DNA of 60,096 nucleotides. It comes from Verrucomicrobiota bacterium. GTDB lineage: Bacteria; Verrucomicrobiota; Verrucomicrobiia; Verrucomicrobiales; DEV007. This document shows positions 42,001-57,000 of the stretch, one piece after another. Location: assembly GCA_045046875.1 (NCBI GenBank), contig JASFYY010000006.1, positions 1-60,096 on the forward strand. The letters run 5' to 3'. The position numbers are program-made. Each line of letters opens with the position of its first letter. The first letter of the stretch is position 1.

Positions 42001-45000
42001 AAATCGGTGACCGCCATGGCATCGAGCGCTACTGTGTTTACATGGGGCTCAAATTTAATACCGATCCCAGCCCCGACGATCTGCGTCGTCAGAACGACGC
42101 AGTGCTAGAAGCGATCACCGCCTTCCCCGACCGCCTTTTTGGTTTTGTTTACCTCAGCCCCAAACACGTAAAAGCCAGTCTCGACGAGCTCGAACGCTGC
42201 GTCGCCAATAGCCCCATGCTCGGGGTCAAATTGTGGGTTGCTCAAAGTTGCGCCGATCCCGCCATCGACCCGATCATCAAACGCGCCGCCGAACTCAAAG
42301 CCGTCATCTTCCAACACACTTGGTATAAAACCGCCGGCAACCCAGCTGGCGAATCCACTCCCGATGATGTCGCCACTCTTGCCACCCGCTTCCCCGACGT
42401 CCCCCTCGTCTGCGGTCACACCGGCGGCAACTGGGAACTCGGCATTCCTGCCATCCGTGCTCACAAAAACGTCAGCATAGGCATCGCCGGCTCCGATCCC
42501 ACCGCCGGTTTTGTCGAAATGGCAGTGCGCGAACTCGGTGCCGACCGCATCCTCTACGGTAGCGACGCCCCCGGCCGCAGTTTTGCCTCGCAACTCGCCA
42601 AAGTCCACGGCGCCAACATTTCCCAAGCAGACAAGGACCTCATCCTCGGCGGCAACTTAAAAAAAATGCTCAGCCCCATTTTAGAAGAGAAGGCTGTAGG
42701 GAATTAGGCTGTAGGCTGTAACCCTCCCATTTCAAACTCCCCTCATTCGTGTTTATTAATCTTCATTAGTGGTTCCTCATTCTTCAATCTCAAATCTCAC
42801 ATTTTTCCAATGCAACGCCGCACCTTTCTGCAATCAACGATCGCTCTCAGCGCCTGCACCAGCCCCCTTGCTGCGCTCGCCGCTTCGACGCCCGCTGCCA
42901 TCATCGATACCAATGTCTATCTCGGCAGCCATCCCTTCCACTCTCCACCACTGGAAAATCCGGGGCAACTCGCGACCAAATTGCGCTCGCTCGGCATCAC
43001 TTCTGCCTGGGCCGCTCCAATGGAATCCCTGCTTCACCGTGACCTCGACCGGATCAATGCCGATCACGCCCAACTCTGTCAACAACACGACCTTTTCACC
43101 GCCATCGGCAGCATCAACCCCAAACTGCCCGATTGGCAGGAAAGCCTGCGCCGTTGCCACCAAGTCCACCGCATGGCAGGCATCCGCCTGCACCCAGCTT
43201 ATCACGGTTACCAACTTGACGACCCTGATTTCAAAAAGCTACTCTCAGAAGTCAGCCAACGGAATCTGCTAATGCAAATCGCTCCACACATGGAGGACAA
43301 ACGCACCCAGCATCCTAAAGCCGTCGTGCCCGCCACCGACCCCAGCCCGCTGCTCGAACTTCTACCAAATTTCAAAAACCTACGCATCCAAATCATCAAC
43401 GGCCTGCGCACCATCACCAACAAAAAACTGCAAACAGGTCTCGCCGCTCTTGGAGTCCATTTCGACATCTCCATGCTCGAAGGAGTCGCCGGCATCGCCC
43501 GTTGCACCATCCCCGCCAAGCGCCTCTGTTACGGCTCCTACGCCCCCGTCTTCATCCCCGAAGCCGCCGCGCTCAAAGTCACCGAATCGGCACCCGACAT
43601 CAGCAAGCAGCAACTGAACGCCTTGCTGCACGGCAATGCTGAAAAACTGATCGCCTGAAGAGCGTTCAGCACAGCGATTGTAGGGCGGGCGCTCCGCTTG
43701 CCCACCCTCAGCAACAGCCTAGCTCATCTCCGCCACATCCATACAGCGCATCAAATGCCGCGCCAAATCCCGGCAATTTTCCTCATACAGCAAACTATGG
43801 TGATCACCAGACGTAGGCAGAATTTCCAATCCATTGCCCGCCACTTGCTGCCAGGTCGAAGGCCCCTGACTCTCCACCATTTCCAGAAAGGAAAGCACCC
43901 GCGCGGCTCTCACCAGATTGCCCCGTTTGATCTGCAGCTTCAAGCGTGAGATAAAAAACTGTTTGCGCTGCTCATACGACTCGGAGGTCACCAAGGTGAT
44001 CCTGCCTGGATAAATCTTGGGCTGATAACGTGCCGAAGCAGTATCCCATATAGCGCGTAAAGTCTGCCCCTGAGGGTAACTCTCCGGCACCGGCGAAGGG
44101 TCATCACCCAATAGCACCTGCCTTTGTCTGGCGGCCTCGGCCTCCTGCCCAAGCGTCCCTGTTGTTCCTGAATCCACCTGCTGATCTCCCGCCTGTTGTG
44201 GAAAAATAGCATCAATGACAATCAAATTAACCTCTTCCCCCATCGCCCTGAGTTGTTGCGCCATTTCAAAAGCAATCACCCCACCCGCCGACCAACCCCC
44301 AATATGATAGAGCCCCTCAGTCTGCACCTCACGCATAGCCGCAATGTAATAACTCGCCATTTCCTCCACCTCCCGCAAAGGAGCCTCGTCACCTTTGAGC
44401 CCTTTGGCTTGCAATCCATAAAAAGGACGATCCTCCCCCATCGCGGATGCCAGTTCGGCATAACAAAGTACATTGCCATCCGATGGGTGAACACAAAAGA
44501 AAGCTGCTTTGTTGCCTGAAGCCTTCAGCGCCACCGCCGCTTGCCAGCCCCCCTCCCATTCCCGGGAAAGAATCAGCTCAGCCTGCAGTGCCGGAGTCGA
44601 CGCCTCCACAAAACTCGCCAATGGCAAGTCCAACCCAAAAACCTCCTTCACCTGGGTGACAATCTCTACCGCTTGCAAAGACGTTCCGCCCAGCTCGAAA
44701 AAGTCGGCATCGGCTTTCATCAAATAATCTCCCTTGAGCACATACTGCCAAATCACCAGGACCTGATCGACCACTTGCTCACGATTAACCTCTATGCTCG
44801 CTTTTGATTCTGTCTGTGACAAAAGTGAACTTTCACCGCCTTTCAATTTTTCTGCCTCAAACCCACCTTCCCCGATCTCCAACACCGTAGGCGCTGCCAC
44901 AGCTTGCAACGGATCCGCAACCATTCGCTGCAACTCCACCCAACATCGCTGTAAGATCCCTTCCACCGTATTTTCATCCACCAAATCCGGATTAAAAGTC

Positions 45001-54000: not shown

Positions 54001-57000
54001 TACCCCTCCCGGGAATACCACCGTCACAGTGACCGAAGTATCACGTAACTCTTGCCTGATAGCTTCACTAAACCCCCGCACCGCAAACTTGCTCGTTGAA
54101 TAAGCCGTCTGCAGCGCTTTTGCGGTTAATCCATAAACACTGGAAACATTAACCAAACTAGCTTCGGCTTGTTTTAATAAATGAGGAATGAACGCTTTGC
54201 TTCCATTCACTACTCCCCATAAATTAACATTCATCACTCTTTCAAAATCATCATATTCCAGTTCCTCTATGCCCAAAGGCTCCATCACCATGCCGGCATT
54301 GTTGATCACCAAATCAACCGAACCGTATTGATTTAGCACCGTCTCGGCAAACTCATGCACCGCCCCACGATTGGCCACATCAAAGCAGCCAACGCAGACC
54401 TCCCCGCCTTGCTCACGGATTTCACGGCCGGTCTGACTTAAGGCATCTTCATCTATATCGGCTATGGCCACCTTTGCCCCCTCCCCAGCCAATCGAAACG
54501 CCAAAGATCGACCGATCCCCGAACCGGCACCTGTAATCACTGCTATTTTGTTTTCAAAAGACTTCATGCTCTCAAGCTTCTGGAAGATTGCCTCAAAACA
54601 GCCCTTCCATCAAGCCCGTATAACAACACTTCCCCGCCAACAGCTGCAGGACAAAAAAGTTAGCCATTGGCTATTGAAAGCTAGCTTATCACACATCAAC
54701 ATCATTTCGCTCGTAGCCTCCGGCTGTCTACGCTACGCTCCGGCTCAGGGCTGGTAATAAAACCGATTTAACCCCAGCGCTTCGCACTGGGCTATCACAT
54801 TTTGTCCTTACAGGACAGTTTGCTTTCATCTCTTTTGCACCAACGGCGCTCAATGGCATAGCCCGAACCTCTTTTGCACCAACGGTGCTCAATGGCATAA
54901 CCCGGACCTCTTTTGCACCAACGGTGCTCAATGGCATAACCCGGACCTCTTTTGCACCAACGGTGCTCAATGGCATAACCTGGGGACCTCTTTTGCACCA
55001 ACGGTGCTCAATGGCATAACCTGGGGACCTCTTTTGCACCAACGGTGCTCAATGGCATAACCCGGGGACCCTCTTTTGCACCAACGGTGCTCAATGATAT
55101 AGCCCAGTGCGAAGCGCTGGGTAAAAAATCCAATTCTTCCAGCCCTGCAAGGGCGAAACTCATAGCGGTCAGCAGCTTAACTATTTTGTCTTACCCCCCC
55201 GCCAAGCCAGCTCAAAAACAAATCCCCTCCATTCCCTCTGCCATACTCTGCCAGTCATTTTTTGCCGCTAGTCCATAAATACGCACATCTTCCTCCTTAG
55301 CTCTTTTTTGCGCCCCTTTCAGCAAAACCTCTGATCGTTGCAAAATGCCACTCAACACCCACCGCTTCTGTTGCGGGGTTAACTCCGCCTTCAGCATCAA
55401 ATCCAGCAATGCCATCACCCGGAAACGATCCATCGCAGGCAGCGTAAAAGACAACTGATCCCCATGCCCGCCATGACGAGTCACCAAGGGCCCCGCGTCC
55501 CCCTTCACCAACCCCACCGGCTCATTCAGCGCCAATCGCAACCACAACTCATAGTCCTCACATACCCGGTAACGCTCATCAAAACCACCCAGGTGCTGCC
55601 ACAGCTTTTGCGACATCATCACACAAGACGGACTGATACAGCACACCCGCACGCAGTTCTCAAAAATCACCCCCTCGGGCTGCGCTTGATTGGCTTTTTT
55701 ATTAAAGGGTCGACCATTTCTCACCCACTGCTCTTCACATTGGGAAATTTCAATGCCCGCGTGGCCAGCGTGCCAGTCCACCTGCTGTTGCAACTTCTCC
55801 ACCTCCCACACATCATCCGAATCCAAAAAAGCCAGCCAATCTGATTTCACCATCTGCGCTCCGGCGTTCCTCGCGCCCGCCGGCCCCACATTTTTAGTCA
55901 GAGACAGCCAGTGATGCCCGGCGCCCTCCACCAGATCCCTCACTTCAGGCAAGTCTAGCTGTGAAGCATCATCCACCACCACCAAGTCAAAATCCCGAAA
56001 GCTCTGAGCCAGTACACTCTTCACTGCGCGTAGCAACATCTCCGGACGATCCCGCACTGGAATCACCACCGTCACTCTCCCAACTGAGATCTCTTGCGCC
56101 ATCATCACTTAAATCAATGTTTTTAAAATTTTAATCAATTTACAGGAAAACACAATTCTTGTTATACCTACATCTTAGCCAAAAATTTTATGCACCCGAT
56201 TCTTCCTTCTTTTTTCCTCCTCGGCGTTTTTCTCTTCGTATATTATAAGCTGCGTGCCCAGCTAAATAATCTAAAAGACAATATAGAGAATCACGATTCA
56301 ACCCACCAAAAACTACAGGATTCCAACCGCGCACTCAAAATCGAACTGAAACGCATCGAGCAACGCATGGATCGGCTTGATCCTAAAACCGACAACCAGG
56401 CCGAAGCTACAACCTTCCCCCGGCAAGATCCGGAACCGATAGCTGAGGAAAAAATCAAACCAATAGAAAAATCCCCCACCCGCAAAACTTTTTTCCCACC
56501 CCCTTTACCTCCAAGTGTTGCCACAGTCAGCAAAACCACCACTGACCAACCACCATCCTCAAAGGCGACCAACGAAGCGGCAGAACAAACCGTTCCCCCA
56601 AGCGAAACCACAAGCTCCTTTTTCGACCGCATCCCCTGGCGCGCCATTCTCGAACGCCTGCACCTTTGGCCGCCCAGCAAAGCTGAGACCGGTGAAAGCG
56701 CCGAAACCCAACTGGCTTCTTGGTGGGCGATTCGTGGAGGACTGATCCTGGTTATCATCGGAGCAGTTTTTTCCGGTATCTATGTCAGTCTGCACACCCC
56801 ACCCATTTTACGGGTATTAGCCCTGTTGCTGGTATCCTCCGGCACCGTCTTTCTCGGCACTCGGATGAAAGAGCCCATGGTGGAATTCGGACGCGCCATC
56901 ACCGCCGGGGGTTTTGCCCTGCTCTACTTCACTGCCTTCGCCGCCTTTGCCCTTCCCGCAACCAAAGTCATCGATTCTCCGTCGCTGGGCATCCTGGCTC

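What a model noticed while it worked through the whole genome (the two positions that open the first line are those of the whole stretch)
43719..54567. One-gene ER-KS-AT-KR-DH-PPTase-C-PCP-TE megasynthase, found five times in 5.8 billion proteins
g00225 (3,338 aa) joins an FMN enoyl reductase (NMO type), a KS-AT-(carrier)-KR-DH-phosphopantetheinyl-transferase core laid out like an enediyne PKSE or PUFA synthase, and an NRPS condensation-PCP-thioesterase end without any adenylation domain. I read it as a self-priming iterative synthase that builds a (poly)unsaturated acyl chain and uses its C domain to join it to an amine or alcohol, a single-protein route to an unknown lipid. Such an architecture has no characterised member and would be a compact, portable lipid-synthesis tool.
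Evidence so far: Pfam domains with places: NMO 286-603, KS 613-1022, AT 1098-1404, KR 1734-1897, PKS_DH_N 1977-2056 (E 0.006, below cut), ACPS 2386-2495, Condensation 2518-2952, PP-binding 2992-3054 (2 stretches), Thioesterase 3080-3189; no AMP-binding domain. find_homologous_proteins with residues 1900-3338 among proteins of 1,835-5,842 aa: of the 120 listed (526 at E<=1e-20 among 2,489 scored), only the query's own cluster and P0002-P0005 (35-55% identity; a Verrucomicrobiales MAG, a Solemya gill symbiont, JGI metagenome proteins) carry ACPS with Condensation and PKS domains; the other 115 are ordinary NRPS matching the C-PCP-TE part. Neighbours: SDR g00226, GT2 g00227.
(Added by a program. 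Inside this text positions count along the whole contig: contig position 1 is position 1 of the stretch shown here. "Call 12" and the like, gene names such as g00115 and contig names such as C1 are that model's own, and its searches are not shown. The text may have been shortened before it was handed on; [...] marks where a part breaks off. The agent that wrote the report below was given it as the finding of a first reader that could run no searches.)

Follow-up and report, generated by a model that had tools for sequence, protein, structure and literature searches.

The report
Self-priming lipid megasynthase with threonine carrier
One 3,338-residue bacterial protein holds every part needed to build a fatty or polyketide chain, to switch itself on and to release the product, and the arm that should carry the growing chain sits on a threonine where all studied enzymes of this kind use a serine.

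Summary
The protein also has an N-terminal FabK-like TIM barrel (1-285). All its catalytic motifs are intact, and dN/dS against a 96%-identical orthologue is 0.14.

"Found five times" is an undercount. About 25 clusters at 50% identity, and 20 loci among 185,579 species genomes, belong to one rare and patchily spread family. Its members end after the PPTase domain, after C, after C-PCP-TE, or after C-A-PCP-TE. No paper on this architecture was found.

The internal carrier is the PUFA-synthase type, not the enediyne type. It has Thr1499 exactly where the phosphopantetheine-bearing Ser should be. The Thr is conserved across the family and also fills whole tandem carrier arrays in other synthases.

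The fused PPTase is the only Sfp-type PPTase found in this genome, and no NRPS adenylation domain was found there. Relatives that end in C sit next to a CurM-type sulfotransferase gene and a separate PCP-TE gene. This genus has an SDR and a GT2 gene instead.

Best reading: a self-priming iterative lipid synthase with NRPS-style off-loading. The product and the role of the C domain remain unknown.

The parts
43719..53735 (-). Megasynthase ORF, 3,338 aa (P0001)
   Evidence: dN/dS 0.14 against L110
52881..53735 (-). N-terminal domain, residues 1-285: a TIM barrel most like FabK/NMO-type enoyl reductases, probably a degenerate second ER barrel
51927..52880 (-). FMN-type enoyl reductase (NMO/FabK/PfaD type), residues 286-603
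   Evidence: Pfam NMO E 1.3e-9. TIGR03151 FabK 73.5 bits, below its cut-off. An EAGGH-like stretch is seen in the sequence (the motif name is recalled).
50670..51899 (-). Ketosynthase, residues 613-1022, with Cys817, His951 and His993
49524..50444 (-). Acyltransferase, residues 1098-1404, with GHSLGE and AFHS motifs (malonyl-type; that reading is recalled)
49107..49346 (-). Internal carrier domain, about residues 1464-1543, motif DLGIDTLKIFEI
   Evidence: AF2 model pLDDT 81.9 with three helices. The family profile matches solved ACPs: PigH E 6e-14, AcpM E 5e-7.
49239..49241 (-). Codon ACT for Thr1499, at the position of the phosphopantetheine-bearing Ser (first residue of helix II)
48045..48536 (-). 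Ketoreductase, residues 1734-1897, with TGGARGIA and YAAAN motifs
46866..47807 (-). Dehydratase (double hot-dog), about residues 1977-2290, with His2000 in HxxxGxxxxP and Glu2170 in LLEAAFQ
   Evidence: Pfam PKS_DH_N E 0.0056 here, but 1e-5 to 1e-9 in relatives, and PS-DH 1e-8 to 1e-13 in P0012-14. H2000, P2009 and E2170 are nearly invariant.
46251..46580 (-). Sfp-type phosphopantetheinyl transferase domain, residues 2386-2495, with GVDVE and FTQKEAVLKA motifs
44880..46184 (-). NRPS condensation domain, residues 2518-2952, active-site stretch DHNIMDC
44574..44762 (-). Peptidyl carrier domain, residues 2992-3054, with a normal Ser in GGTSL
43722..44498 (-). Type I thioesterase, residues 3080-3338, with GWSAG and GDHHS motifs
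53713..54567 (-). Classical SDR, 284 aa; its stop overlaps the synthase start by 23 nt
   Evidence: Orthologues lie next to the synthase in L104, L108 and L110.
55212..56108 (-). Family-2 glycosyltransferase, 298 aa
   Evidence: Orthologues lie upstream of the SDR in L104 and L108.

Best explanation
This is a single-protein, self-activating, iterative lipid synthase of a rare family related to PUFA synthases and type I PKS.

Shown from sequence: one complete set of chain-building domains (KS, malonyl-type AT, carrier, KR, DH, FMN-type ER) with intact catalytic motifs, a fused Sfp-type PPTase, and an NRPS-type C-PCP-TE tail without an adenylation domain.

Inferred mechanism:
1. The fused PPTase installs the phosphopantetheine arm on Thr1499 of the internal carrier, and probably on the Ser of the C-terminal PCP.
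2. KS, AT, KR, DH and ER cycle on the Thr-carrier to build a long, largely reduced acyl chain that may keep a hydroxyl or some double bonds.
3. The C domain takes the finished chain off the Thr-carrier and passes it to the PCP module. It may go directly to the PCP arm or to a small nucleophile held there; this is the weakest step.
4. The chain is tailored while on, or after leaving, the PCP. Here that would be by the translationally coupled SDR. In proteobacterial relatives it would be by a CurM-type sulfotransferase.
5. The TE releases the chain, and the GT2 may glycosylate a hydroxyl.

The product would be a secondary lipid or glycolipid of unknown structure.
For: - Domains and motifs.
- Purifying selection on every domain, including C (0.19), PCP (0.05) and TE (0.09).
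- The only Sfp-type PPTase in the genome is the fused one.
- Thr1499 aligns with the attachment Ser of solved ACPs and starts helix II in a model with pLDDT about 90 in the core.
- Of the 150 best HMMER hits, 38 have this carrier type: 25 with Thr only, 12 with Ser only, 1 mixed (S, T, S).
- Family members that end after the PPTase (P0012, P0013) have no other carrier. Other synthases have arrays of 2-8 carriers that are all Thr.
- No NRPS A domain is in the window or the genome. There are 6 AMP-binding hits. The four I scanned with NCBIfam match acyl-CoA ligase, MenE or PaaK-type models below their cut-offs; the two best hits (contigs C55, C27) were not scanned.
- Relatives that end in C (L096, L099, L106, L119) keep a neighbouring Asub-remnant-PCP-TE gene. 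In L096, L099 and L106 they also have a Sulfotransfer_3 gene, and the one in L106 matches the CurM sulfotransferase (4gbm) at E 1.4e-51. The adjacent 410-aa ORF in L119 was not scanned. That enzyme class acts on carrier-bound hydroxyacyl chains (recalled), which suggests that the PCP carries the acyl chain.
- The GT2-SDR-synthase block is kept in L104 and L108 although the flanking genes differ.
Against: - There are no product, expression or biochemical data.
- E. coli ACP S36T cannot be phosphopantetheinylated (PMC3340395, passages read), so modification of a Thr carrier has no precedent that I could find.
- I know of no precedent for a C domain that moves an acyl chain from one carrier thiol to another (recalled).
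- SDR and GT2 are linked to the synthase only within one genus, and other one-ORF relatives (L100, L105, L107) share no accessory genes.
- The TE is NRPS-type by sequence, not CurM-type; CurM TE is not among the 60 listed hits.
- The DH hit is below the Pfam cut-off in this protein.
- The genome is 94.7% complete, so an A domain or a second PPTase could lie in the missing part.
Confidence: 0.5

Rival explanations
1. It is an N-acyl amino acid (lipoamino acid) synthase. The PCP is aminoacylated in trans, the C domain forms the amide with the acyl chain, and the TE hydrolyses the product.
For: Relatives P0015, P0124, P0126, P0127 and P0128, and loci L102, L109, L117 and L118, carry C-A-PCP-TE after the same KS-AT-carrier(Thr)-KR-PPTase core. 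The separate PCP-TE proteins of relatives that end in C keep a remnant of an A-domain C-terminal subdomain. A-less C-T-TE modules loaded in trans are known, for example in syringomycin (recalled).
Against: No NRPS-type A domain was found in the window or in the rest of the genome. Of the 6 AMP-binding hits, the four I scanned match CoA-ligase or MenE-type models below their cut-offs, with TIGR01733 at 51-89 bits against a cut-off of 317; the two best hits were not scanned. No loading enzyme is conserved next to the A-less relatives. The C domains of the A-containing relatives are no closer to this one (E 1e-19 to 1e-27) than ordinary NRPS C domains are.
Confidence: 0.15
2. The C domain works like the mycobacterial Pap acyltransferases. 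It transfers the chain straight from the carrier to a free alcohol or amine, for example a sugar made or attached by the GT2. PCP-TE only edits or rescues stalled chains.
For: The second His and the Asp of the C motif are invariant. The same genome has a Mas/Pks2-like PKS followed by a free-standing C-domain protein (L121:12140-13522), which is the Mas+PapA layout (the PapA function is recalled). Relatives that end right after C exist.
Against: PCP and TE show the strongest purifying selection after KS (dN/dS 0.05 and 0.09). They are kept as a separate gene where they are not fused. That is more than an editing role would predict.
Confidence: 0.2
3. The internal Thr-carrier is not a carrier at all but a structural or docking domain. 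The chain is built on the C-terminal Ser-PCP or on a separate ACP.
For: Canonical ACP with Ser changed to Thr is not modified by AcpS (PMC3340395). Earlier notes of this scan describe Ser-less ACP look-alikes that were read as binding modules.
Against: Family members that end after the PPTase have no other carrier, yet they keep KS, AT, KR, DH, ER and PPTase. Arrays of up to 8 carriers are all Thr. A mixed S, T, S array exists in L016 and P0209. One family-like protein (P0125) has Ser in the same context. Fused PPTase goes with Thr carriers in 49 of 82 proteins and with Ser carriers in 1 of 21; the sample is biased by the query.
Confidence: 0.12
4. It makes a terminal olefin or hydrocarbon, as CurM/Ols-type ST-TE off-loading does.
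For: A CurM-type sulfotransferase gene sits next to the relatives that end in C.
Against: No sulfotransferase is among the 17 window ORFs scanned between 28934 and 60096; the rest of the window was not scanned. The TE is NRPS-type by sequence. This rival fits the proteobacterial relatives, not this locus.
Confidence: 0.05

Closest known systems
Enediyne polyketide synthase PKSE (SgcE, CalE8, DynE8)
   Same: The domain order KS-AT-carrier-KR-DH-PPTase is the same. Both are iterative, with a fused PPTase that primes its own carrier.
   Different: PKSE has no ER and no C-PCP-TE. Its carrier motif is H(L/M)(S/T/N)S(I/L) with Ser971 (PMC3107222), whereas here it is DLGIDTLK with Thr. No enediyne cassette genes are nearby. 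By sequence, KS-AT is closest to ordinary modular PKS chains in the PDB (7zma, CurL, PikA); DynE8 is not among the 60 listed.
PUFA synthases (PfaA-D plus PfaE) and other 'secondary lipid' synthases (Shulse and Allen 2011, PMC3098273)
   Same: Both have an FMN-type PfaD/FabK-like ER. KS-AT-KR resembles PfaA (TIGR02813, 474.6 bits). The carrier motif context is the PUFA type (GIDxxK..EI). Both build a lipid iteratively.
   Different: The PfaA score is below the model cut-off of 1010. There is no CLF and no FabA-type DH pair. There is one polypeptide instead of several. It has a Thr carrier, a fused PPTase and an NRPS tail. None of the 20 cluster types in that paper, as far as the passages I read show, has this layout.
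Hybrid PKS-NRPS termination module (C-A-PCP-TE)
   Same: C, PCP (Ser) and type I TE have intact motifs, and the best PDB matches are NRPS chains (AB3403 4zxh, Txo1, EntF).
   Different: There is no adenylation domain here or elsewhere in the genome. The C motif reads DHxxxDC instead of HHxxxDG.
CurM / olefin synthase ST-TE off-loading
   Same: Relatives that end in C have a neighbouring sulfotransferase that matches CurM ST (4gbm, E 1.4e-51) and OLS ST (4gox, E 9e-45), plus a carrier-TE protein.
   Different: These genes are not present at this locus. In the relatives the TE is NRPS-type, and the sulfotransferase is a separate protein.
Mas/Pks2 with PapA acyltransferases (mycobacterial lipids)
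   Same: An iterative PKS hands its chain to a C-domain-family acyltransferase.
   Different: Here the C domain is fused and is followed by PCP-TE. No acceptor is known. The comparison rests on recalled knowledge plus the Mas-like PKS with a free C protein found elsewhere in this genome.

Membership tests
Enediyne PKSE | Domain order KS-AT-ACP-KR-DH-PPTase in one protein | tested here: met
   Pfam places the domains in this order, embedded in a larger protein.
Enediyne PKSE | ACP motif H(L/M)(S/T/N)S(I/L) with the attachment Ser (PMC3107222) | tested here: not met
   The carrier reads DLGIDTLKIFEI.
Enediyne PKSE | Neighbouring enediyne cassette genes (hot-dog TE and conserved unknowns; the list is recalled) | tested here: not met
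   The neighbours are SDR, GT2, DUF2339 and amidohydrolases.
Enediyne PKSE | No enoyl reductase; the product is a conjugated polyene | tested here: not met
   A FabK/NMO-type ER with an intact EAGGH-like stretch is fused at residues 286-603.
PUFA synthase (Pfa) | PfaA model TIGR02813 at or above its cut-off | tested here: not met
   474.6 bits against a cut-off of 1010.1.
PUFA synthase (Pfa) | PfaD/FabK-type FMN enoyl reductase | tested here: met
   Pfam NMO E 1.3e-9 and TIGR03151 73.5 bits, below the equivalog cut-off.
PUFA synthase (Pfa) | KS-CLF pair and FabA-type DH domains (PfaC) | tested here: not met
   There is one KS only and the DH is PKS-type. None is in this protein or the neighbouring ORFs. 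The rest of the genome was not searched for PfaC.
PUFA synthase (Pfa) | Carrier with Ser in the GIDS motif (the motif LGIDSIKRVEIL is recalled; it is seen in fetched tandem-carrier proteins P0084 and P0255) | tested here: not met
   Thr1499 occupies the Ser position.
NRPS termination module | Adenylation domain that loads the PCP | tested here: not met
   No AMP-binding domain in the protein. The genome has 6 AMP-binding hits. The four I scanned match CoA-ligase, MenE or PaaK-type models below their cut-offs; the two best hits were not scanned.
NRPS termination module | C domain HHxxxDG | tested here: inconclusive
   The stretch is DHNIMDC. The second His and the Asp are kept in all 11 family members that have a C domain, the first His varies between D and H, and G is replaced by C or A.
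NRPS termination module | PCP Ser and TE Ser/His | tested here: met
   GGTSL, GWSAG and GDHHS are present.
Sfp-type PPTase | Mg-binding GxDxE and (F/W)(S/T)xKE(A/S)xxK motifs | tested here: met
   D2390, E2392, F2440, Q2442, E2444 and K2448 are invariant in 14 sequences. Pfam ACPS scores 31 bits against a cut-off of 25.
Acyl carrier domain (PP-binding) | Helical bundle with the attachment residue at the start of helix II | tested here: met
   AF2 model with helices at 1466-1478, 1499-1509 and 1527-1541. The family profile matches solved ACPs.
Acyl carrier domain (PP-binding) | Attachment residue is Ser | tested here: not met
   Thr in all 14 aligned members and in 25 of the 38 family-type carriers found without selecting for the residue.
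CurM/OLS ST-TE off-loading | Activating sulfotransferase next to the carrier-TE | tested here: not met
   Absent among the 17 window ORFs scanned between 28934 and 60096; the rest of the window was not scanned. Present next to relatives L096, L099 and L106; the matching ORF in L119 was not scanned.
Pap-type C-domain acyltransferases | Transfer of a PKS-bound acyl chain to a free alcohol | not testable with these tools
   This needs an enzyme assay.

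The most novel reading that the evidence does not exclude
In this family, and in many PUFA-like synthases of Desulfobacteraceae-type, Acidobacteria, Elusimicrobia, Anaerolinea, Riflebacteria and Heimdallarchaeia, the phosphopantetheine arm would be attached to a threonine instead of a serine. 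It would be installed by dedicated PPTases that are fused to the synthase or encoded next to it. That would be a new form of the universal carrier-protein modification, O-phosphopantetheinyl-threonine. It would explain why these synthases bring their own PPTase, and it would mean that standard Ser-based rules miscall these carriers as dead.
Probability: 0.45. Interest if true: 0.85.

Novelty: new variant of a known kind. Interest (0 to 1): 0.72.

Why it matters
If one 10-kb gene can prime itself, build a lipid chain and release it, it is a compact and portable route to an unknown lipid, carried by vent Verrucomicrobia, chemosynthetic symbionts, methanotrophs and others. The family shows how PUFA/PKS-type cores have been joined to NRPS tails, with or without an adenylation domain, and to sulfation or glycosylation genes.

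The conserved Thr at the carrier's attachment site is the more surprising point. The textbook rule is Ser, and Ser-to-Thr kills E. coli ACP. A direct mass-spectrometry test on one small domain would settle whether PPTases can use Thr. The answer bears on genome-mining tools, on carrier-protein tagging methods, and on how hundreds of unstudied secondary-lipid synthases are read.

Tried and rejected
- No RNA holder was listed for the gene. The 10 runs that hold part of it are on record or guessed as DNA, or have no kind on record, and 4 of them carry the label hydrothermal vent metagenome.
- hhalign of the N-terminal domain against the ER domain was not significant (probability 1.7%). The link between the two rests on the predicted fold only.
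- The first related-loci run with the single protein found only the genus (3 loci). The run with the full alignment was swamped by the generic AT pattern GHSLGE (599 hits, mostly FabD-like). The degenerate carrier-motif pattern worked.
- The 3.6-3.8 kaa ORFs in sister genera looked similar by position but are KS-AT-ACP-aminotransferase-C-A-PCP-TE, which is another family.
- The swf sponge-symbiont cluster (PMC3908369, passages read) is KS-AT-DH-ER-KR-ACP plus R-ST, also another family.
- Literature: nine searches found no paper on this architecture or on Thr at the attachment site. Three of them asked directly about Thr at the attachment site and returned 0 papers; the peptide-string search returned 13 papers, none relevant. 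The PUFA tandem-ACP paper (PMC3585217) does not print the motif. Subscription journals are not covered.
- The search of earlier findings returned nothing for this genome or this sequence, and only Ser-less ACP look-alikes in other genomes.
- Complex prediction was not used, because the tool text advises against enzyme-carrier pairs.
- The A-domain specificity code of the C-A-PCP-TE relatives was not read, because I held no reference numbering.

Full report
**The observation.** The window holds a 10,017-base ORF on the minus strand (43719-53735) that encodes 3,338 residues without a stop.
- NMO 286-603
- KS 613-1022
- AT 1098-1404
- KR 1734-1897
- PKS_DH_N 1977-2056 (E 0.0056, below cut-off)
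- ACPS 2386-2495
- Condensation 2518-2952
- PP-binding 2992-3054
- Thioesterase 3080-3189
- no AMP-binding domain

NCBIfam adds partial matches to PfaA (474.6 bits, cut-off 1010), to a PKS-plus-SDR model, to FabD and to FabK, all below their cut-offs. A classical SDR gene (53713-54567) overlaps the synthase start by 23 nt. A GT2 gene lies further upstream on the same strand (55212-56108). Against the 96%-identical orthologue L110, dN/dS is 0.14 for the whole gene and 0.035-0.25 for each domain, including C (0.19), PCP (0.05) and TE (0.09). The gene is real and in use.

In a MAFFT alignment of 14 family proteins, all the expected catalytic residues are present (the motif names are recalled):
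- KS: Cys817, His951, His993
- AT: GHSLGE and AFHS
- KR: TGGARGIA and YAAAN
- DH: His2000 in HxxxGxxxxP and Glu2170 in LLEAAFQ
- PPTase: GVDVE and FTQKEAVLKA
- C domain: second His and Asp (DHNIMDC)
- PCP: GGTSL
- TE: GWSAG and GDHHS

**The carrier.** Its family profile matches solved ACPs: PigH at E 6e-14 and AcpM at E 5e-7. In those alignments, the residue paired with the carriers' DS(L/I/V) serine is Thr1499. It is also the first residue of helix II, which is where CalE8 carries its Ser971 (PMC3107222, passages read). The motif DLGIDTLKIFEI is invariant in all 14 aligned proteins, which go down to 36% identity.

Among the 150 best hits of an HMMER scan that did not select for this residue, 38 have this type of carrier. 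Of these, 25 have Thr only, 12 have Ser only, and 1 has an S, T, S array. Family members that end after the PPTase (P0012, P0013) have no other carrier.

Thr carriers also occur outside this family. Desulfobacteraceae-type synthases of 3.6-4.3 kaa hold tandem arrays of 2-8 carriers that all read DLGIDTVKQVEIF. Acidobacteria, Elusimicrobia and Anaerolinea loci have similar arrays, and a Heimdallarchaeum locus mixes S, T and S. In the proteins I fetched, a fused PPTase goes with 49 of 82 Thr-only proteins and with 1 of 21 Ser-only proteins. The sample is biased by a query that contains a PPTase.

In E. coli, ACP S36T cannot be phosphopantetheinylated (PMC3340395, passages read). Three literature searches on Thr at this site returned nothing, and a search with the peptide strings returned nothing relevant. 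Shulse and Allen 2011 do not mention it.

**How common is the family?** Full-length orthologues occur only in the same genus: G005 at 96%, G003 at 67% with an in-frame TGA that splits off the TE, and G001 on two contigs. They were not found in G002 and G004, nor in any of the 35 genomes of other genera of the order.

Wider searches show a rare but larger family than 'five'. 11 of the 120 listed proteins carry both ACPS and Condensation. About 25 representatives at 50% identity head the HMMER list. The exact 12-residue carrier motif occurs at 20 loci in one-genome-per-species data for 185,579 species, and at 4 loci in the metagenome set.

Four layouts exist:
- A. N-barrel-ER-KS-AT-carrier(Thr)-KR-DH-PPTase-C-PCP-TE. 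Members: this genus, P0004, P0005, Methyloprofundus L100, Cellvibrionaceae L107 with three carriers, and L105 with two.
- B. The same but ending after C. Members: L096, L099, L119 and the Solemya velum symbiont L106.
- C. Ending after the PPTase. Members: Riflebacteria and others.
- D. KS-AT-carrier(Thr)-KR-PPTase-C-A-PCP-TE, without ER or DH. Members: Planctomycetes loci and P0015, P0124, P0126-128.

**Context.** GT2-SDR-synthase is kept as a block in L104 and L108 although the flanking genes differ. L110 shows the SDR before its contig ends. Outside the genus these two genes are not linked to the synthase.

Layout B loci carry a separate 434-438 aa protein made of an A-domain C-terminal remnant, a PCP and an NRPS-type TE. 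L096, L099 and L106 also carry a Sulfotransfer_3 gene, and the one in L106 matches the CurM sulfotransferase at E 1.4e-51 and the olefin-synthase sulfotransferase at E 9e-45. The 410-aa ORF beside the PCP-TE gene of L119 was not scanned. Layout A loci in other phyla share no accessory genes.

In this genome the only PF01648 hits are a 130-aa AcpS-like ORF and the fused domain. Of the six AMP-binding hits, the four I scanned match acyl-CoA ligase, MenE or PaaK-type models below their cut-offs, not NRPS A domains; the two best hits were not scanned.

**Mechanism.** Shown: there is a complete, intact and selected set of chain-building domains, a PPTase, and a C-PCP-TE tail without a loader.

Inferred: the fused PPTase primes the Thr carrier, and probably the Ser PCP as well, since no other Sfp-type enzyme is present. 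The module then iterates to a largely reduced chain. The C domain takes the chain off the Thr carrier towards the PCP module, and the TE releases it. The SDR and GT2 genes here, or the CurM-type sulfotransferase in relatives, decorate a hydroxyl.

The conserved pairing of a carrier-acting type of sulfotransferase with the PCP-TE gene is my main reason to think that the PCP carries the acyl chain rather than an amino acid. The C-domain step is the weakest part. The rivals are trans-loaded amino acid, Pap-like transfer to a free acceptor, and a dead Thr carrier; they are listed with their evidence in the rival section.

**Comparison with known systems.** The domain order matches enediyne PKSE. 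However, the PKSE carrier motif, the absence of an ER and the cassette neighbours were all tested and not met. The ER and the carrier context match PUFA synthases. However, the PfaA model cut-off, CLF/FabA-DH and the Ser carrier are not met. The tail is an NRPS termination module that lacks its A domain. I therefore file the protein as a new variant of iterative type I PKS/secondary-lipid synthases, not as a member of PKSE or Pfa.

**Verdict.** The finding is real, uncharacterised and rarer than most megasynthase layouts, but it is not unique.

Noticed in passing
window 54830-55096: A 39-nt tandem repeat (6.7 copies, 94% matches) fills most of the 644-nt gap between the GT2 and SDR genes. It is flanked by an inverted repeat (about 55093-55121 and 54776-54803). 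In L104 and L108 the same gap is only about 80-100 nt. The 104-aa ORF at 54728-55042 is an artefact of the repeat.
   Followed up: partly
P0032-P0068, P0085, P0211 (fetched proteins); L019, L020, L021: Carrier domains with Thr at the Ser position form tandem arrays of 2-8 copies (DLGIDTVKQ...) in other large PUFA-like synthases of Desulfobacteraceae type, Acidobacteria, Elusimicrobia and Anaerolinea. L019 has a separate PPTase gene directly upstream.
   Followed up: partly
L016:13623-21581 (Heimdallarchaeum MAG) and P0209: One tandem array holds three carriers with Ser, Thr and Ser at the attachment position, in a protein that has a fused PPTase.
   Followed up: no
L121:4386-13522 (own genome, contig C87): There is a second PKS in the genome (2,579 aa, Mas/Pks2-like with an MDR-type ER). 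It is followed by a free-standing 461-aa condensation-domain protein, which recalls Mas plus PapA.
   Followed up: partly
L106:14271-16826, L096:2366-4952, L099:14303-17345, L119:3009-5579: Relatives that end in C keep a protein made of an A-subdomain remnant, a PCP and a TE next to the synthase. Beside it, L096, L099 and L106 have a Sulfotransfer_3 gene, and the one in L106 is a CurM-type sulfotransferase homologue. The matching 410-aa ORF in L119 was not scanned. This suggests a sulfated or olefinic product in those bacteria, among them the Solemya velum gill symbiont.
   Followed up: partly
L011:15013-15042 (G003): An in-frame TGA separates the TE (257 aa) from the rest of the synthase (3,062 aa) in one species of the genus. 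It could be a real split, a read-through or a sequencing error.
   Followed up: no
L009:65-11443 and similar ORFs in sister genera: A conserved hybrid of 3.6-3.8 kaa (KS-AT-ACP-aminotransferase-C-A-PCP-TE, iturin/mycosubtilin-like) occurs in many genera of the family but is unrelated to this finding.
   Followed up: partly
window 36978-41892: The downstream neighbours are a GH16, a sulfatase and an FAD oxidoreductase with a Golvesin_C domain. They look like polysaccharide-degradation genes.
   Followed up: no
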